From Sedimentisphaerales bacterium (lineage in GTDB: Bacteria; Planctomycetota; Phycisphaerae; Sedimentisphaerales; Anaerobacaceae), in assembly GCA_016932095.1 (NCBI GenBank), contig JAFGDN010000026.1:4692-68691 (forward strand): a stretch of 64,000 nt of DNA, read 5' to 3'. Shown here one piece after another: positions 3,758 to 46,552 of the stretch. Position 1 is the first letter of the stretch; every line of letters begins with the position of its first letter. Below the pieces are notes generated by a model. It saw only the letters and a list, made by a program, of their open reading frames with translations, searched no databases and was not told the origin of the DNA. The position numbers were made by a program, and so were the translations under genes.

Positions 3758-4723
3758 ATGAACATTGTTTATTTAGGAAGCGGCCAGTTTGGATTACCGT
3801 CTCTTGATGCAGTTGTGAAATCGAGTCACGAGCTGGTGCTTGTCGTCTCGCAGCCGGTTCAGCCGGCAGGCAGGGGGCGTAAACTGACCCATACCCCGGC
3901 GGCAAACTGGGCGGTCGAACATTCGATTCCCGTTATCGAAACCGACGACGTAAACGCACCTGATATAATCGAGAAAATCAAAAATTGCGCCCTCGACCTC
4001 ATAGTCGTAATCGCCTTTGGCCAGAAAATCGGTAAAGAAGTCGTCGATATTGCCCCAAAAGGCGCAATAAACGTTCACGGCTCGCTTTTACCGAAATATC
4101 GTGGGGCGGCGCCGTTCAACTGGGCGATTGTCAACGGCGAGACCGAAACAGGCATTACAATAATTACTATCGCCGAGAGAATGGACGCAGGCGAGATTGT
4201 CGCGTCAATGAAGACCCCAATCGAGCCGCAGGAGTCAGCCGGCGAGCTTCACGACCGCCTGGCTTTGCTGGCCGGGCCGCTGCTTTTAGAAACCATCAAC
4301 AAAATTGCAGAAGGCACGGCCGTATATAAAAAGCAAAATGAATCCCAGGTTACACGGGCGCCAAAGTTGAAAAAATCCGATGGTTTTTTGGATTTTTCGG
4401 AACCGGCGGAGCTGCTCTACAGGAAAATGCTGGGGTTTTGGCCCTGGCCGGGAACAATCGCCGTTTACAAATCGAAGAAAACCGGACGAACCGAAAGAGT
4501 CATTTTCGCTAAAGCGGAAATTTTGCGAACAACGAATCCTCAAAATCTGCCGCCCGGCACAATCGATGAAAACCTCAACGTCATCTGCGGCCAAAACCGT
4601 CTTCAGATTGTTCGATTGAAGCCCGAAAACTCACGTTTAATGAGTTTTGCTGATTTCGTTCACGGCAGGCACGTTTGTCCGGGGGATGAGTTTGTTAAAA
4701 TAGAGGAAAAGGGCAATATCTGA
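3758..4723 (+). CDS. fmt: Methionyl-tRNA formyltransferase
   Basis: MNIVYLGSGQFGLPSL N-terminus, HGSLLPKYRGAAPFNWAI motif, C-terminal formyltransferase domain. Start taken at the internal ATG 3758, not the track start 3674, which would add a non-homologous extension overlapping the upstream gene. Confidence 0.9.
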   Translation: MNIVYLGSGQFGLPSLDAVVKSSHELVLVVSQPVQPAGRGRKLTHTPAANWAVEHSIPVIETDDVNAPDIIEKIKNCALDLIVVIAFGQKIGKEVVDIAPKGAINVHGSLLPKYRGAAPFNWAIVNGETETGITIITIAERMDAGEIVASMKTPIEPQESAGELHDRLALLAGPLLLETINKIAEGTAVYKKQNESQVTRAPKLKKSDGFLDFSEPAELLYRKMLGFWPWPGTIAVYKSKKTGRTERVIFAKAEILRTTNPQNLPPGTIDENLNVICGQNRLQIVRLKPENSRLMSFADFVHGRHVCPGDEFVKIEEKGNI

Positions 4724-6098: not shown

Positions 6099-6217
6099 CA
6101 GATTAACTATTTTTTACAGGATTACTCTTGACGAGGTTTGAGCAAATTGTTAAGTGAGTATCAGACCGGCGGGGTTGCCGGCTGTTAATAGTTAGTTGAA
6201 AATGAAAGGAATCAATT

Positions 6218-7036
6218 ATGGCCAGGTTAGTTCTTATCACGTTGATTATTGTTTCAGTTTGTGCGCTCGCCGGCTGCAACGGCGTCGATACCGGCAGGGC
6301 GCAAATTGTGCCGTCCTCCGTGTCAACCATTTCGGGCCCTGCGGTCGATATAACCAAAACGACCGAAGCGGACTTGTCTGAAAACATCGCCACCAGCCGG
6401 CAGTCCTACAGGCGGGGGCTGGAGGTACTGATTCAGCATTACACAAGGACCGGAAACAATATGAAGCTGGGCTGGGCGGAAAAGGAGCTTGCTGCGCTCG
6501 ACGCGATTCCACAGTATAATTACGTCGTCGAGGCGACAATCGCAGGCCCAAATCTCAAGGCAACCAAGTCAGTAAGCGAGGCCGATTACCTGTTTAACGA
6601 CGCGGTCCGGCTCGAGGAGCAGGCGGGACAGTTTTTGGTCGTTAAGGACGATAACCTCCTTCGACTCGCCCTCGATAAATATAACCAGTTGATTGGCAAG
6701 TTCCCGGCTTCCGACAAAATCGACGACGCCGCCTTCAGGGCGGCTGGAATCTACGAGCACTTCAAGGATTACACCATCGCCGTATTGTATTACCAAAGGG
6801 CGTACCAGTGGGACCCGCAGACGATATACCCCGCCAGGTTCAAAGCGGCTTTTGTTCTCGACTACAAGCTGAAAAGAAGGGCCGAGGCCCTGCAACTGTA
6901 TCAGGAGGCGCTGCGAGATACGGCCCCCGGCCAGCACTGGCGATGGCGACAGACCGCTGAACAGCGGGTCAAGGAGCTGACCGGCGAGGTCAAGCCGGAA
7001 GAGCTTCCGCAGGAGCCATTGAAACAGTATAAGTAG
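6218..7036 (+). CDS. Lipoprotein with TPR/BamD-YbgF-like helical repeats (tentative)
   Basis: Signal peptide with lipobox (VCALAGC). The helical-repeat-like body includes YYQRAYQWDP and ALQLYQEAL. Confidence 0.5.
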   Translation: MARLVLITLIIVSVCALAGCNGVDTGRAQIVPSSVSTISGPAVDITKTTEADLSENIATSRQSYRRGLEVLIQHYTRTGNNMKLGWAEKELAALDAIPQYNYVVEATIAGPNLKATKSVSEADYLFNDAVRLEEQAGQFLVVKDDNLLRLALDKYNQLIGKFPASDKIDDAAFRAAGIYEHFKDYTIAVLYYQRAYQWDPQTIYPARFKAAFVLDYKLKRRAEALQLYQEALRDTAPGQHWRWRQTAEQRVKELTGEVKPEELPQEPLKQYK

Positions 7037-7040
7037 AGAT

Positions 7041-8453
7041 TTGAGGCAGCTCGAACAAAAGGTATTGAATTTTATCTCAGCGGAAGGGCTTATCCGGCCG
7101 AGAGATGTGGTATTGCTCGCCTGTTCAGGCGGCGCTGACTCGACCGCGTTACTGCATATTATTATTTCGTTTAAAAAAAAAGGTCGATTCCCCGTTGGGA
7201 TTTTCTGCGCCCATATCAACCACCGGTTGAGAGGAAAAGAAGCGCGGCGCGACGAGGATTTTGTCATCGAGCAGTGTCGTAAGCTCGGCCTGCGCGTGGT
7301 TACACGAAAAATCAACGTGCGGGAATACGCCCAAAAGCATAAGCTGTCGGTTGAGTCGGCGGCAAGAAAGCTGCGAATCGAGGCCCTTATCGGAATAGCA
7401 AAAAAACAAAATTGCACCTGCATCGCGACCGCCCATCAGAAAAACGATAACGCCGAAACAGTTCTGCAAAGATTGACGCGAGGCACAGGCATTCGCGGAC
7501 TTTGCGGCATCTGGCCCGATAAACAATTTTCACCGGACATCAGGTTTATAAGACCGCTTTTATGCGTCAGCCGCACGGAGCTCTTGAAATACCTTAAAGG
7601 ACGAAAAATAAAATGGTGCGAAGACCGGACAAACCTCGATTGTTCCTATCGGCGTAATTTTATCCGCAATCGCCTGCTGCCCTGTCTGCAAAAGCGATTC
7701 AAAACCGATTTAGTCGAACAGATTGCCGGATTGTCAAAGTCGGCCCGCGGCTTTAATCGGCTCGTTTCGTCAGCCGCCGACGCCGTCTGGACAAAAGCAG
7801 CAACTGCTGAAACAGAAACTATTTCGCTGGATTTAGATGTCCTCAAAAAGCTTCATCCTGAAGTCCAAATCGAGCTTTTTCGCCGGACGTTGAATCATCT
7901 CGAATGCGGCGAGCAGGATATTACGGAACGCCATTACACGGACGTCTTGCGGTTGTCACAAGGTGCAAAGCTGCAATTGCCTAATTTCATAGAAGCGCAT
8001 CGGCAGGGGGGGGTAATCATTTTTTCTCGTCCATGTGTTTATAAATACGGGGCGAGGGTTGCCCCGCCGAAATGGTTAAAAATTCCTGGCCGGACGGTTT
8101 TTGCCGGCGTTCGCATCGAGGCCGAAGTATTCGATTATGATTCAGCGAACTTCGGAAAGTTCAAGGCAAACAAAAGCAATACTGTCGAATGGCTTGACTA
8201 CGACAAGCTGAAATTGCCGTTGAAAGTGCGGTTTAGAAAACCCGGCGACCGATTTTGGCCTCTCGGTCTGAAGGCGGAGAAAAAAATCGGCAAGTTTTTA
8301 ACGAACGCTAAGATACCGAACGAATTGCGTCAAAAACTGCTTATTGTCGAGGACTCCGAAAAAGTCATCTGGCTATCACCGGTCAGAATCAGCGAGCGAG
8401 TTAAGGTAACGAATCGAACGAAAAGGATTTTACAGTTGAGAGTTTTTTCCTGA
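7041..8453 (+). CDS. tilS: tRNA(Ile)-lysidine synthase
   Basis: PP-loop LLACSGGADSTALL, HINHRLRG motif, length about 470 aa. TTG start as given by the ORF track. Confidence 0.85.
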   Translation: MRQLEQKVLNFISAEGLIRPRDVVLLACSGGADSTALLHIIISFKKKGRFPVGIFCAHINHRLRGKEARRDEDFVIEQCRKLGLRVVTRKINVREYAQKHKLSVESAARKLRIEALIGIAKKQNCTCIATAHQKNDNAETVLQRLTRGTGIRGLCGIWPDKQFSPDIRFIRPLLCVSRTELLKYLKGRKIKWCEDRTNLDCSYRRNFIRNRLLPCLQKRFKTDLVEQIAGLSKSARGFNRLVSSAADAVWTKAATAETETISLDLDVLKKLHPEVQIELFRRTLNHLECGEQDITERHYTDVLRLSQGAKLQLPNFIEAHRQGGVIIFSRPCVYKYGARVAPPKWLKIPGRTVFAGVRIEAEVFDYDSANFGKFKANKSNTVEWLDYDKLKLPLKVRFRKPGDRFWPLGLKAEKKIGKFLTNAKIPNELRQKLLIVEDSEKVIWLSPVRISERVKVTNRTKRILQLRVFS

Positions 8454-8462
8454 CCGGCAAAA

Positions 8463-9542
8463 CTACTGTTCCGGCGGGTCAAATAGCTCAGATTGTTCCG
8501 TTGCCTTTTTCTTGTGATATTTCAGACCCAGGTGTCTGCAGGCGTCGCTGGTTATTTCCCTGCCGCGTTTGGTTCGTCGCACGAAGCCGATTTGCAGCAG
8601 ATACGGCTCAACCACGTCTTCTAAGGTGTCCGTCTCTTCGCCTAATGTAGCCGCGATTGCCTCGATACCCGCAGGCCCTCCCTCATAAACGCCCGCAAGC
8701 GCCCGCAAAAACGAGCGGTCCATTTCATCGAGACCCAGCCCGTCAATCTGCTCCATCTTAAGAGCGTTTTCAACAATCGCGGCTGTGAGTTTTCCCTGCC
8801 CCTTTACCTGTGCGTAATCCCGGACTCGTTTTAACAGCCGGTTTGCGATTCGGGGCGTGCCGCGCGAGCGGGTAGCGATAAGCTCTAAAGTGCCGTCCTG
8901 GCAGCTTAACTGTAAAAGTTTGGCAGAGCGATTGAGTATTAAACTCAGTTCCTCTGTGTTGTAAAATTCCAGATGATATAACATTCCGAATCTGCTTCTA
9001 AGCGGTGCGCTGAGTAGTCCTGCGCGAGTTGTTGCGCCGATAAGCGTGAAGCGCTTGAGCGGGAAATTGATGGTTTTTGCATGCAGGCCGCTATCGACGG
9101 TGAAATCGACCCTGAACTCCTCCATCGCCGGATACAAAAATTCCTCGACCGGCGTGCTCAGCCGATGGACCTCGTCGATAAAAAGTATGTCGCCCGTGCC
9201 GATATTACTCAAAAGCCCCATCAAGTCGCCCTGTTTTGTTAAGGCCGGTCCCGACGTGCAGCGTATGTTTGCCGCCATCTCGTTAGCGACGACATTTGCC
9301 AAGGTTGTCTTGCCTAAACCGGGCGGGCCGTAAAACAAAATATGCTCCAGCGGCTCACCCCTCTTTTTCGCCGCCTCGATTGCGATTTTGAGCTTGTCGA
9401 TGACCTTCTGCTGGCCGACGCACTCACGCAACTGCTTCGGCCTAAGCGAGACGTTGAAATTTTCCTCCGCCTCGTTTTTCGACTCGCCTGTTATAACCCT
9501 GTCGATTGCCATTTCTTTCTTCTGTGTTCCCAGGGCAATCAC
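8463..9542 (-). CDS. ruvB: Holliday junction ATP-dependent DNA helicase RuvB
   Basis: Walker A GPPGLGKTT, Walker B FIDEVHRL, RuvB C-terminal winged helix. The start may instead be the internal ATG at 9512 (MAIDRV...). Confidence 0.95.
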   Translation of the reverse strand: MIALGTQKKEMAIDRVITGESKNEAEENFNVSLRPKQLRECVGQQKVIDKLKIAIEAAKKRGEPLEHILFYGPPGLGKTTLANVVANEMAANIRCTSGPALTKQGDLMGLLSNIGTGDILFIDEVHRLSTPVEEFLYPAMEEFRVDFTVDSGLHAKTINFPLKRFTLIGATTRAGLLSAPLRSRFGMLYHLEFYNTEELSLILNRSAKLLQLSCQDGTLELIATRSRGTPRIANRLLKRVRDYAQVKGQGKLTAAIVENALKMEQIDGLGLDEMDRSFLRALAGVYEGGPAGIEAIAATLGEETDTLEDVVEPYLLQIGFVRRTKRGREITSDACRHLGLKYHKKKATEQSELFDPPEQ

Positions 9543-41561: not shown

Positions 41562-41591
41562 AAAAAAACCGGCGGCTTTTGAGGCCGCCGG
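41562..41591 (-). terminator. Strong rho-independent terminator ending the paralog array
   Basis: Minus-strand read: CCGGCGGC, loctcaaaa loop, GCCGCCGG, followed by TTTTTTT. Confidence 0.75.
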
Positions 41592-41626
41592 CGTTGTTTA
41601 CAAACGGTCAACAGTAAACCTGTTTC

Positions 41627-42181
41627 CTAATCCCATACGTAGCCCTGGCTGGAAAGCTCTCCTACGACAAAATTGTAGGCGCCGTTAAAATCCATACCTT
41701 CGACGGCAGCGGTCCATTTTTTGTTGAAGCTGAGCGTCCAGTTTGCGATACCAATATCTCTGTTGCCAGAACCATATTCCTCATCCCATATTTCAGTGCC
41801 GGTGAATTTCGAGACGATGTCTTTTTTCACTGCGCCTGTGAGAAGTACGCGATATTCGTCATCACCGGTCGAGAGAATTATGATTGTCTTATTATTGCCA
41901 ATATCGGCCTCGACAACATCATACTCCTCATCCCAGTCATCCATTAATTTATCTGTTCCGCCGCTCCATTTTTCGGTCCAGATTTCGATAAAAGTAGCAT
42001 ATGCCACGCCGCCGCTTTCTTCGATAACAAGGTATCCCTTGTAACTACCCTTCCATAAATAAATTATGGAGTTGTAGTAGTCGTAACCGGATTCCTTGGT
42101 TTTCCAGTTAAAAACAATAACTTCCGCCCAGGCCGGAACCGCAAAGGCCAGAACAAGCAGTATCAGCAACATCTTCTTCAT
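41627..42181 (-). CDS. Secreted protein P1 (paralog family, subtype B)
   Basis: MKKMLLILLVLAFAVPAWA|EVIVFNWKTK... The RBS GAAAGGAAGG lies upstream of ATG 42181. It aligns with P3 (KGYLVIEE, KFTGTEIWDEEY, NKKWTAAVEG, GYVWD). Confidence 0.7.
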   Translation of the reverse strand: MKKMLLILLVLAFAVPAWAEVIVFNWKTKESGYDYYNSIIYLWKGSYKGYLVIEESGGVAYATFIEIWTEKWSGGTDKLMDDWDEEYDVVEADIGNNKTIIILSTGDDEYRVLLTGAVKKDIVSKFTGTEIWDEEYGSGNRDIGIANWTLSFNKKWTAAVEGMDFNGAYNFVVGELSSQGYVWD

Positions 42182-42225
42182 TTTATTAAACCTTCCTTTC
42201 TCAGGTATAATTAAAATCACAGGAT

Positions 42226-42813
42226 TTAATCAGGAATATAACCCAGTTCGTTAACAAGATAGTTCATAAGTTCCATAGTCGCCGTGATGCCGTCATAACC
42301 TTCTTCCTCCGCATAGAGCGTGTATTTCGTATGCAAACTCAATGTAACTTTTGAGCTGCCGATGTCCCTTTCGCCAGGATTGTCTTCTGTATCCCAGATA
42401 ACGTTGCCGACCAGCTTCGTGGCAATGGTGCCTATTTTTGAGTTCCTGACATATCCTTTTAACAGGATGCGCTGGTCTTCGTTATCACCGGAGGTTATTA
42501 TCCATATGGTTTTCTTCCCTGCATCGGCCGTGATGATTCCAAGTTCGCCAAGGGATTCGGCCGAAACGTATTTCTGCATCTTGCCGTTCTTGTCTTTTTC
42601 TTTGTAGGTAGCGATAACCCACATATCCACGGTATCGTCGCCGGGGCCGCCCTCTAAAATAATGTAACCCTTTATGTTTTCCTTCTCCATTTCCCAGTCC
42701 GGCGAATCTTCCATAAAAGATATACCTTTGTTGCTCATCGTGTAAACAAGCACGTCGGCGCTGACCGGGACGGTCAATCCCAGCAGCAACAGCACAAACA
42801 ACAATTTTTTCAT
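42226..42813 (-). CDS. Secreted protein P2 (paralog family, subtype A)
   Basis: MKKLLFVLLLLGLTVPVSA|DVLVYT... It aligns with P4 (GKKTIWIITSG, ILLKG, IWD, RDIG). Confidence 0.7.
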   Translation of the reverse strand: MKKLLFVLLLLGLTVPVSADVLVYTMSNKGISFMEDSPDWEMEKENIKGYIILEGGPGDDTVDMWVIATYKEKDKNGKMQKYVSAESLGELGIITADAGKKTIWIITSGDNEDQRILLKGYVRNSKIGTIATKLVGNVIWDTEDNPGERDIGSSKVTLSLHTKYTLYAEEEGYDGITATMELMNYLVNELGYIPD

Positions 42814-42979
42814 TCTTCAGCCAATCCTTTCATAAAATGTTTTTACAATAATTTTCAACAGAGAGAGGTTTGCCTCGTCACCCTAAAACGCGACGGATAC
42901 CCTTTAACTCCGTGTTTTCTATAAAATTACACCAACAGAATTATAACATACTTCTGTCTTTTCAGGCAAGCGAAAATCC

Positions 42980-43200
42980 CTATTCAGATATGGGCTTTGG
43001 GAGCAGTGCATTGAGGTTTTCGCGTGCTTTTTGGTCGTTGGGGTCGAATTGAAGGGTTTTTTTTGAAAGATTCAACCGCCTGTTCGGTATGCCCCTTTGT
43101 CTGAAGGATCAGATAGATATTTGGTTTGCATTTCTGAGCTTTTAGAGTCGCTATTGGCGTTTATTCACGGATGTTTTTACGTGATGTCGGTAGCGGGCGT
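42980..43200 (-). pseudogene. Copy of the 3' end of the TMTC-like gene (duplication-junction scar)
   Basis: 43011-43050 is identical over 40 nt to 44562-44601. The flanks align with mismatches and indels over about 160-220 nt. The residual frame reads ...FDPNDQKARENLNALLPKPISE*, compared with ...FDPNDQKARENLNALTQNTSTK* in the intact gene. Confidence 0.65.
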
Positions 43201-43205
43201 TTTTG

Positions 43206-43775
43206 TTAGTTCCACTCATAACCCTTTTTCATAAGCTCCTGGCCAATCCAAACCCTGGCCTGCTCGGCTGTGAACCCTTCATTTTGAGCAACGGTGGTCC
43301 ATTTTTTGTTGATTACAAGGGATGCCCGCGGGGTGCGGAATAATTTGTTGCCGTCTCGATATTCCCGCCATATCTCGGTGCCGGAGAATTTCGCAGCCGT
43401 GCCGCTTTTCACTTCGGCGGTTAGCAGGACCTGGTATCTGATTGTTAATGACGGCGAAGAACTGTAATATTTGTCGGAAAGAACCATATATATCTTGTTG
43501 TCAATGTTGATTTCGGCAGGTTCGAACCCGGCTTCCCAGTACCACATAAGTTTATTTTCTCCCGATGTTGTATCGATATAAAGGGCGTATGCGTATGGCA
43601 ATTTATCGTCTGTTTCTATGATAACATATCCCTTATGGTTTTCCTTCCATGTTTGTAAGACGGCTCCGGATTGGAAGTAGCAATCGACTTTCTCCTTCCA
43701 GTTATAGACAAAGACATCCGCATCGGCTGGGAAGGCCGTCGATAGCATCAGAAAAACCAGCAGTAATAGTTTCAT
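43206..43775 (-). CDS. Secreted protein P3 (paralog family, subtype B)
   Basis: MKLLLLVFLMLSTAFPADA|DVFVYNWKEK... Shared blocks with P1: KGYVIIET, KFSGTEIWREY, NKKWTTVAQNEG, GYEWN. Confidence 0.7.
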   Translation of the reverse strand: MKLLLLVFLMLSTAFPADADVFVYNWKEKVDCYFQSGAVLQTWKENHKGYVIIETDDKLPYAYALYIDTTSGENKLMWYWEAGFEPAEINIDNKIYMVLSDKYYSSSPSLTIRYQVLLTAEVKSGTAAKFSGTEIWREYRDGNKLFRTPRASLVINKKWTTVAQNEGFTAEQARVWIGQELMKKGYEWN

Positions 43776-43850
43776 TTTTTTCTAATTCCTTTTGCAAAGT
43801 TTGTTTCGCCGGGCGTATTAAAATCGCGTGATTCACCTCTAAACGTTACA

Positions 43851-44447
43851 TCAGTGCCACCCCCTGTCCTCGTAACCTTTACTTTTAAACTCAGCTTCGA
43901 TTATCTCTCCTGCCTGCTGGATGGTAAGTCCCTGAAAATCAAGAGTCCTTTTAAAATTTAAGCTCCAGGAACCTTTGATTGTGCCTATATATCTGTCATC
44001 TTCATAGGGGCCATCCCATATTGCAGTTACGATAAGCTTTGGGGCAATAATCATTTCGGCGTTTCCGACTTTTTTGAGTTTTGCCTCACCTTTTAGTATC
44101 TGGCAGCTAACATCGGATTCGGCAGTAATTATCCATATCGTTTTTTTCCCAAGCGGGCATTCGAGCAGATTAAAAGTTGGTATTGAATATAATTCGTATA
44201 ACTTTCGGGTTTTACCCTCCGATTTTTCTTTCCACTGGTCGAAACATAAGCCGGTAATTGTGCCGTCGTCATTTACCTCAACAATGAAATATGCCGTCAA
44301 TAAACGTTGACTGTCATCTTCCCACTTCTGTTCCTGTCCCCTGTAAATAAAGCCCTTTTTGCAATACTTTACATTATATACGAGCACATCGGCGCTAACC
44401 GACGCCGTCAAACCGAGGATAAACAAGACCAATGAAAAACGTTTCAT
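43851..44447 (-). CDS. Secreted protein P4 (paralog family, subtype A)
   Basis: MKRFSLVLFILGLTASVSA|DVLVYN... Shared blocks with P2: GKKTIWIITAES, ILKG, IWD, RYIG. Start taken at the internal ATG 44447. Confidence 0.7.
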   Translation of the reverse strand: MKRFSLVLFILGLTASVSADVLVYNVKYCKKGFIYRGQEQKWEDDSQRLLTAYFIVEVNDDGTITGLCFDQWKEKSEGKTRKLYELYSIPTFNLLECPLGKKTIWIITAESDVSCQILKGEAKLKKVGNAEMIIAPKLIVTAIWDGPYEDDRYIGTIKGSWSLNFKRTLDFQGLTIQQAGEIIEAEFKSKGYEDRGWH

Positions 44448-44492
44448 TTTTAAACCCATACTTTCCCGAACACTCAAAACCCTGCTGGTGGT

Positions 44493-44521
44493 ATTATAAC
44501 AAATTTAACCTCTTTTTCGAA
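44493..44521 (-). promoter_or_regulatory. Possible internal promoter ahead of P4 (TTCGAA-N17-TATAAT)
   Basis: On the minus strand: TTCGAA (44521-44516), a 17-nt spacer, TATAAT (44498-44493). The -35 hexamer is a weak match. Confidence 0.3.
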
Positions 44522-44530
44522 AAGAAAACC

Positions 44531-46552
44531 CTATTTGGTCGAGGTATTTTGAGTCAGGGCGTTGAGGTTTTCGCGTGCTTTTTGGTCGTTGGGGTCGAAT
44601 TGGAGGGCTTTTTTGTAGGATTCTACTGCCTGGTCGAATTTACCTTTTGCCTGGAGGAGTATGCCGAGATTGGTGTGCATTTCGGCGTCGTCGGGGCGGG
44701 CGGCAAGGACGATACGGCACTGCTCGATTGATTCGTCGATTTTGCCGACCGCTGCAAGCGCAAGGGCGAGCCGGCCGTGAGTTATGATGTTGTTGGGGTC
44801 GAGCAGCAGCGACCTGTAATAGTATTCGAGTGCCTCACCGGGTTTACCGCTTTGTGCTAGGGCATAGCCGAGATTTCCGAGGACTTCGGCGGAATCGGGT
44901 CTGGCGGCAAGCGCCTTTTTGAACCGGCCGACGGCGTCGCCTACTTTACCCTGTGTGGCCAGAGATATCGCCATACCCTGTTGCAAGTTGACGTCGTTGG
45001 CGTCGCAGCCGAGGTAAAATTTGTAGTGCTCGATGGCCGCATCGTATTCGCCTTTTGCCATAAGTGCCACGCCGAGATTTAAGTGGGCGACGGCATAATT
45101 GGGTTCGAGCCGCAAAGCGATGTTGTATTGTTCAATGGCGTCGTCAATGCGGTCGAGCTTTTTCAGGGCAACGCCAAAATTATTGCGGATATCGGGTGCG
45201 TTGGGCAGGATTTTAATCGCCTCGTTGAAGTATATGACGGCCTCGTATGGCCGGTCCTGGTCGCTGAGAGAATTTCCGTAATTGTTGAGTATTGTGTAAT
45301 TATTTTTAGTTACGGCCAAAGCGTGCTCGAACAGCGTTAAGCTGGTTTGCCAGTGTTTCAACTGAGCTGACGTGCTCAGAACGCAGGCCAAAAGAACAAC
45401 CGCCGCCATAGTCGAAAGGACGCGCCTGGAGAGGGGAATATGTTTGAGCAGGTCGGCTGCGCCGAAGGCGATGATTACGAAAAGGCCGATAAGGGGGATG
45501 TATGTGTATCTGTCGGCCATTGCCTGGACTCCAACCTGGATGATGCCGATGACGGGAACGAGTGTGCCTAAGTACCAAAGCCAGCCGAAGGCCAGATATT
45601 TATATCGTCTGCCGTAATAAAGTAAAAGAGCGGTAATAAGAATCAGTATTATTGCTGATACGACGGCTTTTACGATAAGCATTCCGTCGCCTGCGCTGAT
45701 GCTGGCGGGATGTGGATAAAGGACGGCCAGCCGGGTGGGCACAAACATTTTCCATATATAGGCAAGATACGAGCATAGGGCGTTTAAGATGCGGTCCTTA
45801 AAAAAAATAGCAGTAACGGCGCCGCCTTTGCGCTGAAAGATAAAAGTGATTACGCTGGATACTATAGTAAGGATGAAAAATGGAAGCTTTTCGATAATGG
45901 AATTTAGAATTGAGAATTTAGAATTAAGAAAGCGGCTGAGAGGCCAGTAATCGAGCAGTATAAGAACGAAGGGAAGAGTAACGAGCATCGGCTTTGCCAT
46001 AAGGCCGAGGCCGAACAGGACAATTGCAGTGATATAAGCAATGATTGATTTACGCTCGGTATAACGAATATATGCTAACATTGTGAGAAGCCAAAACAGC
46101 GTGCTGAGGACGTCTTTTCGCTCAGCGACCCAGGCGACGGACTCGACATGCAGCGGGTGGACGGCGAACAGGGCAGCGATAAATGCGCTTGCCCAGGAGC
46201 GTTTGGTCATGCGATTGAAAACAACAAATAGCAAAAGGGTGTTTGTGATATGAAAGACAACGTTTATAAGGTGCAAAGGGCCTGATTTGACGCCAAAGAG
46301 CGTGCAATCGAGCATAAGAGACAGCCACGTCAACGGGTGCCAGTTAGAAGAGCGGCCCGTAGTGAAGGCCCATTTGAAGTTTTGCCAGGAAAAGCCCGAT
46401 TTGATGTTGGGGTTATCGGTAACATAATCGTCATCGTCGTAATTGACGAACTCGTGATTGCGGACGGGCAGATAAACGGCAAATGTGACCACGGCAAGCA
46501 GGGCACATAAAAGAGGGACGCGATATTTAGGTTGTAGATTTGTCATTTTCAC
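44531..46552 (-). CDS. TMTC-like GT-C glycosyltransferase (PMT_2-type membrane domain) with C-terminal TPR repeats
   Basis: The N-terminal loop motif HEFVNYDDDDYVTDNPNIKSG matches the F(V)xDD...N motif of TMTC/TPR O-mannosyltransferases. About 10 TM helices follow. About 7 TPR units form the C-terminal third (AIEHY, ALEYY, AVESYKKAL). Confidence 0.8.
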   Translation of the reverse strand: MKMTNLQPKYRVPLLCALLAVVTFAVYLPVRNHEFVNYDDDDYVTDNPNIKSGFSWQNFKWAFTTGRSSNWHPLTWLSLMLDCTLFGVKSGPLHLINVVFHITNTLLLFVVFNRMTKRSWASAFIAALFAVHPLHVESVAWVAERKDVLSTLFWLLTMLAYIRYTERKSIIAYITAIVLFGLGLMAKPMLVTLPFVLILLDYWPLSRFLNSKFSILNSIIEKLPFFILTIVSSVITFIFQRKGGAVTAIFFKDRILNALCSYLAYIWKMFVPTRLAVLYPHPASISAGDGMLIVKAVVSAIILILITALLLYYGRRYKYLAFGWLWYLGTLVPVIGIIQVGVQAMADRYTYIPLIGLFVIIAFGAADLLKHIPLSRRVLSTMAAVVLLACVLSTSAQLKHWQTSLTLFEHALAVTKNNYTILNNYGNSLSDQDRPYEAVIYFNEAIKILPNAPDIRNNFGVALKKLDRIDDAIEQYNIALRLEPNYAVAHLNLGVALMAKGEYDAAIEHYKFYLGCDANDVNLQQGMAISLATQGKVGDAVGRFKKALAARPDSAEVLGNLGYALAQSGKPGEALEYYYRSLLLDPNNIITHGRLALALAAVGKIDESIEQCRIVLAARPDDAEMHTNLGILLQAKGKFDQAVESYKKALQFDPNDQKARENLNALTQNTSTK

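What the first reader, a model, noticed from the sequence alone, without database searches (positions are those of the whole stretch)
42980..43200. Non-coding copy of the glycosyltransferase 3' end between P3 and P2: a tandem-duplication junction
The spacer between P3 and P2 contains a copy of the last ~60 codons of the TMTC-like gene. The stretch 43011-43050 is identical over 40 nt to 44562-44601, and the flanks align with substitutions and indels. The layout GT-P4-P3-[GT 3' fragment]-P2-P1 is what a single tandem duplication would produce, with one breakpoint inside the GT 3' end and the other just past the B-type gene. This physically links the GT and the A-B pair as one co-duplicating module. 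The 40-nt perfect core is also much better conserved than most of the coding paralogs. That could reflect gene conversion or a functional element at the GT/P4 boundary, such as an RNA structure or processing site.
Basis: seen in the sequence. Interest (0 to 1): 0.6.

Follow-up and report, generated by a model that had tools for sequence, protein, structure and literature searches.

The report
Glycosyltransferase tail relic carrying a promoter
The spacer between two secreted-protein genes holds a dead copy of the last 51 codons of the neighbouring glycosyltransferase gene plus the promoter that follows it: an ordinary rearrangement scar in a fast-changing gene array, probably partly refreshed by gene conversion.

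Summary
Window 42940-43134 aligns with 44493-44683 at 73% identity over 196 columns (E 3e-31). It contains a perfect 41-nt run, 43011-43051 = 44562-44602. The core occurs only twice in the 2.95-Mb genome, so it is not a dispersed repeat. An independent assembly breaks exactly inside both copies.

The copy covers the last 51 GT codons, the stop codon and 38 nt downstream, including a TGnTATAAT promoter. That promoter is conserved behind the GT stop in relatives. Two 1-nt insertions and the lack of a start make the fragment non-coding.

A single tandem duplication of a GT3'-A-B unit does not fit as stated.
- P2/P4 synonymous sites are saturated.
- P4 and P2 each have their own orthologue in a relative, and an AU test rejects a P2+P4 clade (p 0.010).
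- Homology is a 196-nt island: the 5'UTRs and the regions downstream of P3 and P1 do not align.
- The fragment is much younger, with dS about 0.6-0.9.

In five relatives, tandem GT paralogues share 85-95% identical 3' ends against a 60-68% background. Gene conversion is therefore the best explanation for the core. No RNA structure or Rfam family was found.

This is an ordinary scar of modest interest.

The parts
44531..46552 (-). Parent gene: 673-aa membrane glycosyltransferase with a PMT_2 domain and C-terminal TPR repeats (TMTC-like architecture)
   Evidence: ORF. Pfam PMT_2 scores 38.2 bits (cut-off 26.1), plus many TPR families.
44493..44683 (-). Source segment homologous to the fragment: last 51 GT codons (44534-44686), TAG stop (44531-44533) and 38 nt downstream
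   Evidence: blastn 73% over 196 columns, E 3e-31; codon-annotated alignment.
44562..44602 (-). Perfect 41-nt core, copy 1, encoding QFDPNDQKARENLN at the end of the last TPR of the GT
44493..44520 (-). Sigma-70-like promoter in front of P4 (TCGAAA-16-TATAAT, with TG extension TGTTATAAT at 44493-44501)
   Evidence: One of the two best promoter-like sites of the region, both 10/12 with TG. Homologous to the promoter behind the GT stop in relative G007, score 20, 0 of 500 shuffles.
43851..44477 (-). P4, secreted A-type protein (gene call in an independent assembly starts at ATG 44459, 202 aa)
   Evidence: Groups with the third P gene of relative G022 (95/89).
43206..43775 (-). P3, secreted B-type protein, sister of P1 on a long branch
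   Evidence: P1+P3 support 90/81, P3 branch 2.06.
43138..43205 (-). Stretch between the P3 stop and the fragment with no detectable homologue; the upstream breakpoint of the relic lies at its lower end
   Evidence: No hit in the genome beyond the 196-nt match. No significant similarity to the region downstream of P1 (score 8 vs 6.8+-1.0 in shuffles).
42983..43137 (-). Pseudogenised GT 3' end: 51 codon equivalents. Two single-A insertions (in ACCAAAT at 43119-43125 and in the A8 run at 43057-43064) break the frame; there is no start codon and there are stops upstream
   Evidence: Three-frame translation. Frameshift-corrected reading SEMQTNIYLILQTKGHTEQAVESFKKTLQFDPNDQKARENLNALLPKPISE, dN 0.24, dS 0.64. 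Coordinates.
43011..43051 (-). Perfect 41-nt core, copy 2, 1551 nt downstream of copy 1 in direct orientation
   Evidence: Logan contig ends fall inside it.
42980..42982 (-). Retained TAG at the position of the GT stop codon
42940..42969 (-). Sigma-70-like promoter in front of P2 (TTGCCT-18-TATAAT, TGTTATAAT at 42940-42948); the functional-looking right end of the relic
   Evidence: 10/12, TG. Its GCTTGC...TGTTATAAT matches the promoter behind the GT stop of G007, 1 of 500 shuffles. Same type of site in G011, G014, G022 and G023.
42814..42939 (-). P2 leader of 126 nt without homology to the P4 leader; only the last ~30 nt (GAAAGGA ribosome-site region) resemble leaders of P2 orthologues
   Evidence: Fold z-score -0.66.
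42226..42813 (-). P2, secreted A-type protein, orthologous to genes in G023 (57%) and G022 (48%)
41627..42220 (-). P1, secreted B-type protein (independent gene call starts at ATG 42181, 184 aa)
41568..41592 (-). The only strong intrinsic terminator of the array, after P1
   Evidence: 9-pair stem with 8 GC pairs, then a T run.

Best explanation
The 196-nt stretch is a dead relic of the 3' end of the PMT_2/TPR glycosyltransferase gene together with the promoter that normally follows that gene's stop codon. A segmental rearrangement in a birth-and-death array of secreted-protein genes left it between P3 and P2.

Shown: it is collinear with the GT tail, stop codon and downstream promoter. It has lost coding capacity. 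It is unique to this genome among the relatives examined. It split from this genome's own GT well after the P2/P4 split.

Inferred: its right end survives because it is the promoter that drives P2-P1. Its centre (87 nt at 87%, including 41 perfect bases) was made identical again to the live GT tail by short-tract gene conversion. The same process has homogenised the last 160-260 nt of neighbouring GT paralogues in five sister species.

Two histories remain open. (a) A duplication running from inside the GT tail to just past the last B gene of an ancestral GT-P4-P2-P1 array, which made P3 from P1, followed by loss of the redundant P2 and P4 copies. (b) The relic is the stump of a full second GT that once preceded P2-P1, as GTb does in relatives, and whose body was deleted.
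For: Homology and its limits. Only two copies in the genome. Independent assembly. Loss of frame. The fragment shares derived states with its own GT (66.7% identity) rather than with four orthologous GT tails (49-56%). dS between fragment and GT is 0.64, whereas own GT against orthologues is saturated. The P2/P4 split is old. P1+P3 are sisters and G022 has P4o-P2o-P1o adjacent. The run of 41 is not chance (5 of 200000). Identity is tent-shaped, 57-67% at the edges and 87-100% in the centre. Relatives with tandem GTs show 3' tracts at 88% over 194 nt (G014), 95% over 239 nt (G020), 88% over 161 nt (G008), 86% over 260 nt (G002) and about 91% with a perfect run of over 100 nt (G011), against 60-68% elsewhere. 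The promoter is the top consensus site in the region and is conserved after the GT stop across species.
Against: No transcription data could be obtained, so promoter use is inferred from consensus and conservation only. Conversion normally needs flanking identity, which the present 57-67% flanks no longer offer, so the tract must predate much of the flank decay or have arisen by template switching. With only two copies and no conspecific genome, conversion cannot be separated from selection on the core. History (a) needs two extra deletions, and P1/P3 dS (about 1.9, 4-fold sites 12/30) is nominally higher than the fragment's. History (b) needs an interleaved GT-P-P-GT-P-P ancestor that none of the 12 complete relatives' loci shows. 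The dN/dS hint for a coding phase is not significant (0.31 observed vs median 0.57 expected, P 0.13).
Confidence: 0.6

Rival explanations
1. One tandem duplication of a unit [GT 3' end - A gene - B gene] produced P4/P2, P3/P1 and the scar at the same time, and the scar's similarity reflects that event.
For: The gene order GT-P4-P3-fragment-P2-P1 is what such an event gives. Weak A/B typing exists: P1/P3 40% and P2/P4 38% identity. The P4-P3 and P2-P1 junctions are marginally similar (10 of 500 shuffles).
Against: P2/P4 4-fold sites are at random level, 6/26. P4 and P2 have separate orthologues in G022, and a P2+P4 clade is rejected at p 0.010. The neutral fragment is far less diverged than the selected genes. 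Homology does not continue from the fragment into the P2 leader or gene at comparable divergence. The model survives only as an ancient duplication plus later conversion and independent deletions in G022 and G023.
Confidence: 0.12
2. The 41-nt core is a functional cis element kept identical by selection, for example a binding site for an activator about 76-118 nt upstream of the start sites of the two paralogous promoters. The remaining GT-like sequence is a passenger.
For: The core sits at nearly the same distance from the -10 box in both copies, 63 and 65 nt. The run is far longer than chance allows. CGCGAAAACCTC is shared with the GT tails of G014 and G007.
Against: In relatives this segment is simply the conserved end of the last TPR, at 73-82% nt identity and not invariant. 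No dyad symmetry or structure is present. No further copy lies upstream of any other gene in the genome. Within-genome homogenisation of the same segment in relatives occurs where no promoter follows the first copy.
Confidence: 0.1
3. The two identical direct repeats act as a recombination substrate. They let the population lose (or amplify) the 1551-nt P4-P3 cassette, giving a variable repertoire of secreted proteins.
For: The repeats are direct, 41 nt long and bracket P4-P3 plus one promoter. Recombination would leave an intact GT with a new 9-residue tail directly in front of promoter-P2-P1. Copy number of P genes varies from 0 to 5 among relatives.
Against: Any direct repeat can recombine, and nothing shows that this happens here at a useful rate. 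A 31-mer graph cannot reveal the deletion variant, and read mapping was not available. No recombinase gene lies in the locus.
Confidence: 0.08
4. Assembly artefact: two related populations were joined at a shared k-mer, so the fragment is really the tail of an intact GT from another strain.
For: This is a metagenome-assembled genome with 94 contigs, and the repeat is of k-mer size.
Against: The left flank of the fragment carries both frameshifts and runs without a branch into P3 in an independent 31-mer contig. The right flank runs into P2-P1-sigma. Both flanks on both sides are homologous but diverged, which a misjoin would not create.
Confidence: 0.03

Closest known systems
Gene relics (truncated pseudogene fragments) left at junctions of segmental duplications or deletions in bacterial tandem gene arrays
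   Same: Collinear copy of a gene end next to an intact parent, with a lost reading frame, no start codon, and one sharp breakpoint.
   Different: The adjacent duplicated genes are much older than the relic. The relic carries a conserved promoter that probably keeps it useful.
Short-tract gene conversion and concerted evolution between tandem paralogues (sequence-dependent conversion leaving islands of identity)
   Same: An island of identity (41 of 41, 87% over 87 nt) in a 57-67% background. Within-genome similarity exceeds between-species similarity. The same segment is homogenised in five sister species.
   Different: One partner here is non-coding, so conversion cannot be selected for protein function. 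The flanks are now too diverged to support further RecA-type exchange.
Promoter capture by partial gene duplication (internal promoter duplicated together with the 3' end of the upstream gene)
   Same: The duplicated piece ends exactly at a -10 box and sits in front of the next gene pair.
   Different: Promoter activity is inferred from consensus and cross-species conservation, not measured.
TMTC-type and PMT-type GT-C protein O-mannosyltransferases with TPR domains (the parent gene's family)
   Same: PMT_2 membrane domain followed by TPR repeats. The fragment is the last TPR.
   Different: Bacterial, uncharacterised, and one of more than 12 paralogues in this genome. No substrate is known. 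The link to the P proteins rests on synteny only.

Membership tests
Segmental-duplication scar / gene relic | Significant collinear homology to part of a nearby intact gene | tested here: met
   73% over 196 columns, E 3e-31. It includes the stop codon and downstream DNA.
Segmental-duplication scar / gene relic | Loss of coding capacity | tested here: met
   Two +1 insertions, upstream stops and no start codon.
Single tandem duplication of a GT3'-A-B unit | Homology continues from the scar into the adjacent duplicated genes at comparable neutral divergence | tested here: not met
   The P2 and P4 leaders do not align. P2/P4 4-fold sites are 6/26 identical against a fragment dS of 0.64. AU test p 0.010.
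Single tandem duplication of a GT3'-A-B unit | The sequence downstream of the first B gene, up to the junction, matches the sequence downstream of the second B gene | tested here: inconclusive
   Score 8 against shuffles at 6.8+-1.0, with 104 of 500 as good. 71 nt at this age might be undetectable.
Dispersed repeat (REP/MITE-like) | Many copies across the genome | tested here: not met
   Exactly two copies in 2.95 Mb. No exact match in the JGI metagenome contigs.
Dispersed repeat (REP/MITE-like) | Hairpin or terminal inverted repeats | tested here: not met
   Core MFE -0.1 kcal/mol. No inverted repeat involves it other than a chance-level 15-nt pair.
Gene-conversion tract | Identity significantly above that of the flanks | tested here: met
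   A run of 41 against a next-best run of 9; 5 of 200000 shuffles.
Gene-conversion tract | Paralogues within a genome are more alike in the tract than orthologues between genomes | tested here: met
   Fragment to own GT 66.7%, against 49-56% to four orthologous tails. The core states are shared only by the two copies in this genome.
Gene-conversion tract | Recurrence at the same segment in related genomes | tested here: met
   G011, G014, G020, G008 and G002 show 85-95% identity over 160-260 nt at GT 3' ends, against 60-68% elsewhere.
Gene-conversion tract | Population data showing the two copies co-varying among strains | not testable with these tools
   No conspecific genome or contig was found.
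Sigma-70-type promoter | -35 and -10 hexamers with proper spacing, extended TG | tested here: met
   TTGCCT-18-TATAAT and TCGAAA-16-TATAAT, both with TG, are the top two sites in 3.4 kb.
Sigma-70-type promoter | Conservation at the same position in relatives | tested here: met
   TTGACA/TTGCAA/TTGAAA-17-TATAAT lies 30-50 nt after the GT stop in G007, G014, G022 and G023, with a weaker, differently spaced version (TTGTAA ... GATAAT) in G011. Alignment to G007: 0 and 1 of 500 shuffles as good.
Sigma-70-type promoter | Mapped transcription start | not testable with these tools
Structured RNA / Rfam family | Match to a covariance model, or folding energy below shuffles | tested here: not met
   No Rfam match at E up to 1. 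Fold z-scores range from -0.66 to +0.73.
PMT_2/TPR glycosyltransferase (parent gene) | PMT_2 domain above the Pfam cut-off plus TPR repeats | tested here: met
   PMT_2 38.2 bits against a 26.1 cut-off; TPR_1 129.6 bits.

The most novel reading that the evidence does not exclude
The 41-nt identical direct repeats are kept identical for a reason. Either they are a shared upstream regulatory site of the two paralogous P promoters, or they are a built-in recombination handle that lets the population drop or amplify the P4-P3 cassette. The recurrent homogenisation of the GT tail in sister species would then be part of the same mechanism for reshuffling a glycosyltransferase-linked array of secreted proteins.
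Probability: 0.1. Interest if true: 0.45.

Novelty: new member of a known kind. Interest (0 to 1): 0.25.

Why it matters
The relic marks where and roughly when this array of genus-specific secreted proteins was last rearranged. It shows that the P genes have their own conserved promoter behind the glycosyltransferase gene. It also exposes a recurrent conversion hot spot at the last TPR of the neighbouring glycosyltransferase paralogues. That helps in annotating and reconstructing the array, but it does not reveal a new kind of element.

Tried and rejected
- Dispersed repeat: rejected, since only two copies exist in the genome, there was no exact match in the metagenome contigs, and hits in the genus are ordinary GT tails.
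- RNA element: rejected. Rfam found nothing, and folds of both copies, the core and the P2 leader were no better than shuffles.
- Small ORF: a 31-codon TTG frame covers the core, but it has no convincing ribosome site and was not pursued.
- Orphan GT tails in relatives: none in four loci by self-BLAST and none in 12 complete PurC-to-sigma loci.
- Closer relatives: only one protein at 75% identity to P2 was found. Its 914-nt contig has a Kelch-like gene upstream rather than a GT, and no relic. A protein-based metagenome scan found nothing.
- Coding phase of the fragment: dN/dS is 0.31-0.42 and codon position 2 is the best conserved. Simulation gives P 0.13 under neutrality from birth, so this stays open.
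- Fragment as remnant of the 'GTb' copy of relatives: the GT tree puts this genome's own GT next to the short GTb clade (94/94), which does not help decide.
- Homogenised patches among the other GT arrays of this genome: only patches of about 79% were found, none at the 3' ends.
- One literature search gave nothing specific. Another failed on syntax.

Full report
**Layout.** All genes of the region lie on the minus strand.
- A 673-aa glycosyltransferase lies at 44531-46552. It has a PMT_2 domain at 38.2 bits against a cut-off of 26.1, plus TPR repeats.
- Downstream follow P4 (43851-44477), P3 (43206-43775), a 392-nt spacer (42814-43205), P2 (42226-42813) and P1 (41627-42220).
- The only strong terminator follows P1, at 41568-41592.
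- An ECF sigma/anti-sigma module comes next.
- Record titles of relatives place the genome among Sedimentisphaerales (Phycisphaerae) genomes assembled from peat metagenomes.

**Observation.** The claimed identity of 43011-43050 with 44562-44601 is exact and extends to 41 nt.
- A gapped alignment joins 42940-43134 to 44493-44683 at 144/196 = 73%, E 3e-31. The repeat finder reports 90 nt at 81%.
- The exact core occurs only at these two places in the 2.95-Mb genome. All other matches are short and at chance level.
- The core has no exact match in the JGI metagenome contigs.
- Shuffling the alignment columns reaches a run of 41 in only 5 of 200000 trials. The second longest run is 9.

**Independent assembly.** Two Logan contigs from run SRR13394437 are 100% identical to the window.
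- One spans 44591->43022. The other starts at 43040 and runs through P2, P1 and the sigma module.
- Their ends lie 30 nt inside the core copies. That is what a 31-mer graph does at a 41-nt exact repeat.
- The left flank of the fragment, which carries both frameshifts, is joined without a branch to P3. The right flank is joined to P2. A chimeric join of two strains is therefore very unlikely.

**What the fragment is.** Read on the minus strand, it covers the last 51 codons of the GT, the TAG stop at the same aligned position (42980-42982 vs 44531-44533) and 38 nt beyond it.
- Two single-A insertions (in ACCAAAT at 43119-43125 and in the A8 run at 43057-43064) break the frame. Stops lie upstream and no start codon exists.
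- With the two insertions removed for comparison only, it reads SEMQTNIYLILQTKGHTEQAVESFKKTLQFDPNDQKARENLNALLPKPISE. The GT tail reads AEMHTNLGILLQAKGKFDQAVESYKKALQFDPNDQKARENLNALTQNTSTK.
- Divergence from the GT tail is dN 0.24 and dS 0.64.
- Changes that can be polarised with four orthologues fall mostly on the fragment lineage, at codon positions 1 and 2. They include the loss of the conserved TPR glycine. The fragment is a pseudogene piece.

**The right end is a promoter.** The two best sigma-70-like sites in 3.4 kb are the homologous pair at 44520..44493 (TCGAAA-16-TATAAT) and 42969..42940 (TTGCCT-18-TATAAT). Both carry a TG extension.
- In G007, G014, G022 and G023 a TTGnnA-17-TAnAAT site sits 30-50 nt behind the stop of the GT that precedes the first P gene. 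G011 has a weaker version, TTGTAA ... GATAAT, with different spacing.
- Both promoters of this genome align significantly with that of G007, with 0 and 1 of 500 shuffles as good.
- The fragment copy keeps the ancestral GCTTGC -35 region better than the copy behind the live GT.
- I infer that the P genes have their own conserved promoter and that the relic supplies it to P2-P1. No transcript data were available to show this.

**Age comparison.** The P paralogues are old.
- P2/P4 share 38% of residues, and P1/P3 share 40%.
- At 4-fold sites of identical residues, P2/P4 agree at 6 of 26, against a random expectation of 25%. P1/P3 agree at 12 of 30, with NG86 dS 1.86.
- The fragment is 73% identical to its parent, or about 61-66% outside the centre. 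Its dS is 0.64-0.91.
- This genome's GT tail against orthologous tails is saturated at synonymous sites.
- The fragment shares derived states with its own GT: 66.7% identity, against 49-56% to four orthologues.

**Gene trees.** A tree of 22 family members supports an old A-type split.
- P4 groups with the third P gene of G022 (95/89). P2 groups with genes of G023 and G022 (100/99). P1 groups with P3 (90/81, with P3 on a long branch).
- Forcing P2+P4 into one clade costs 33 lnL units, p-AU 0.010.
- In G022 the orthologues of P4, P2 and P1 are adjacent, with no B gene or scar between them.
- The A-type pair therefore predates the split from G022. The scar postdates the split from every relative examined.

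**Extent of homology.** In a unit-against-unit alignment, the identity profile is tent-shaped.
- Per 30 nt, the counts rise from 17-20 to 28 and 26, then fall back to 17 and 15. Identity then collapses.
- The 71 nt between P3 and the fragment do not match the region downstream of P1. The 126-nt P2 leader does not match the P4 leader.
- A plain tandem duplication would leave collinear homology across the leader and into the A gene at scar-like divergence. That is not seen.

**Relatives.** The locus PurC-(methyltransferase)-GT(1-3)-P(0-5)-sigma is syntenic across the genus.
- The P family occurs in 19 of 41 genomes searched, all from this one genus out of 16 genera.
- No relative has an orphan GT tail.
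- Where two GTs stand in tandem, their last 160-260 nt are far more alike than the rest:
  - G011: about 91%, with a perfect run of over 100 nt.
  - G014: 88% over 194 nt.
  - G020: 95% over 239 nt.
  - G008: 88% over 161 nt.
  - G002: 86% over 260 nt.
  - The background identity is 60-68%.
- Orthologous tails between species are only 59-74% identical.
- This is concerted evolution by gene conversion of exactly the segment copied in the relic. It makes conversion the most economical cause of the identical core.

**Other readings of the core.**
- An RNA element is not supported. Rfam finds nothing at E up to 1. The core is unstructured at -0.1 kcal/mol, and 101-nt contexts have z-scores of -0.7 and -0.8.
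- A regulatory DNA site cannot be excluded. The core lies 63 and 65 nt upstream of the two -10 boxes. But it has no symmetry, no further copy, and in relatives it is simply the conserved TPR end at 73-82% identity.
- The two direct repeats could recombine and delete P4-P3, leaving an intact GT with a different 9-residue tail. Nothing shows that this happens.

**History.** Two routes fit the data, and I cannot separate them.
- (a) From an ancestral GT-P4-P2-P1 array as in G022, a duplication ran from inside the GT tail to just past P1. This created the junction B gene | GT tail and made P3. The redundant P2 and P4 copies were then lost.
- (b) A full second GT once preceded P2-P1, as GTb does in G023, G011 and G014. 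Its tail was kept similar by conversion, and its body was later deleted.
- A coding phase is hinted at. Codon position 2 is the best conserved, and dN/dS is 0.31 for the 28 constrained codons. A simulation of neutrality from birth gives P 0.13, which is not significant.
- A tree of GT N-terminal parts puts this genome's GT next to the short GTb clade (94/94). That does not decide the matter.

**Verdict.** The fragment is a genuine rearrangement scar that links the GT tail and promoter to the P array. It does not record one duplication of an A-B pair. The identical core is best read as a conversion tract rather than an RNA element. It is an ordinary feature of a dynamic array, of modest interest.

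Noticed in passing
L016 7365-7600 vs 9152-9380; L030 5608-5801 vs 7512-7705; L031 5481-5719 vs 7556-7794; L032 4407-4567 vs 6194-6354; L034 2238-2497 vs 4313-4572: In five sister species, the last 160-260 nt of tandem PMT_2/TPR glycosyltransferase paralogues are 85-95% identical while the rest of the genes are 60-68% identical. This is a recurrent conversion hot spot at the final TPR.
   Followed up: partly
L016, L030, L033 (between the GT stop and the first P gene): Relatives G011, G014 and G007 share a 120-170-nt leader between the promoter and the P gene. It contains conserved blocks (GGTTATAAYWCGCGGTATAATGGC ... GTCGCCTGATATTATTTT ... GAGAAAGGATGG). This could be a conserved leader RNA or a second promoter. 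It is absent from the leaders in this window.
   Followed up: no
window 41627-44477: The P family has no Pfam match and was found in only one genus out of 16. An AlphaFold model of P2 is confident (pLDDT 85, pTM 0.78): long antiparallel strands plus two C-terminal helices. It has no PDB match above TM 0.31.
   Followed up: partly
L013 6096-7625 and 8343-9473: In relative G022, two of the five P genes are extended or fused (509 and 376 aa). The start of the 376-aa gene is 80% identical over 76 nt to the start of the preceding P gene.
   Followed up: no
window 41627-44477 vs relatives: The P genes of this genome are closest to those of G022 and G023, the genus members most distant by PurC (73-75%). 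Nearer relatives (PurC 81-87%) carry a different P clade or none. This suggests birth-and-death sorting or exchange of the array within the genus.
   Followed up: partly
L019 3-167: The closest known P2 relative (75% identity, ENA contig of 914 nt) is preceded by a Kelch-like beta-propeller gene rather than a glycosyltransferase. The P pair is therefore not always GT-linked.
   Followed up: partly
window 41627-44477: The P array has 43.6% G+C, against 49.0% for the window and 50.1% for the GT gene.
   Followed up: no
genome contigs C53 14319-23561, C9 33265-39283, C4, C57, C46: The genome holds more than 12 PMT_2/TPR glycosyltransferase paralogues, several in tandem arrays of three to six genes.
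   Followed up: partly
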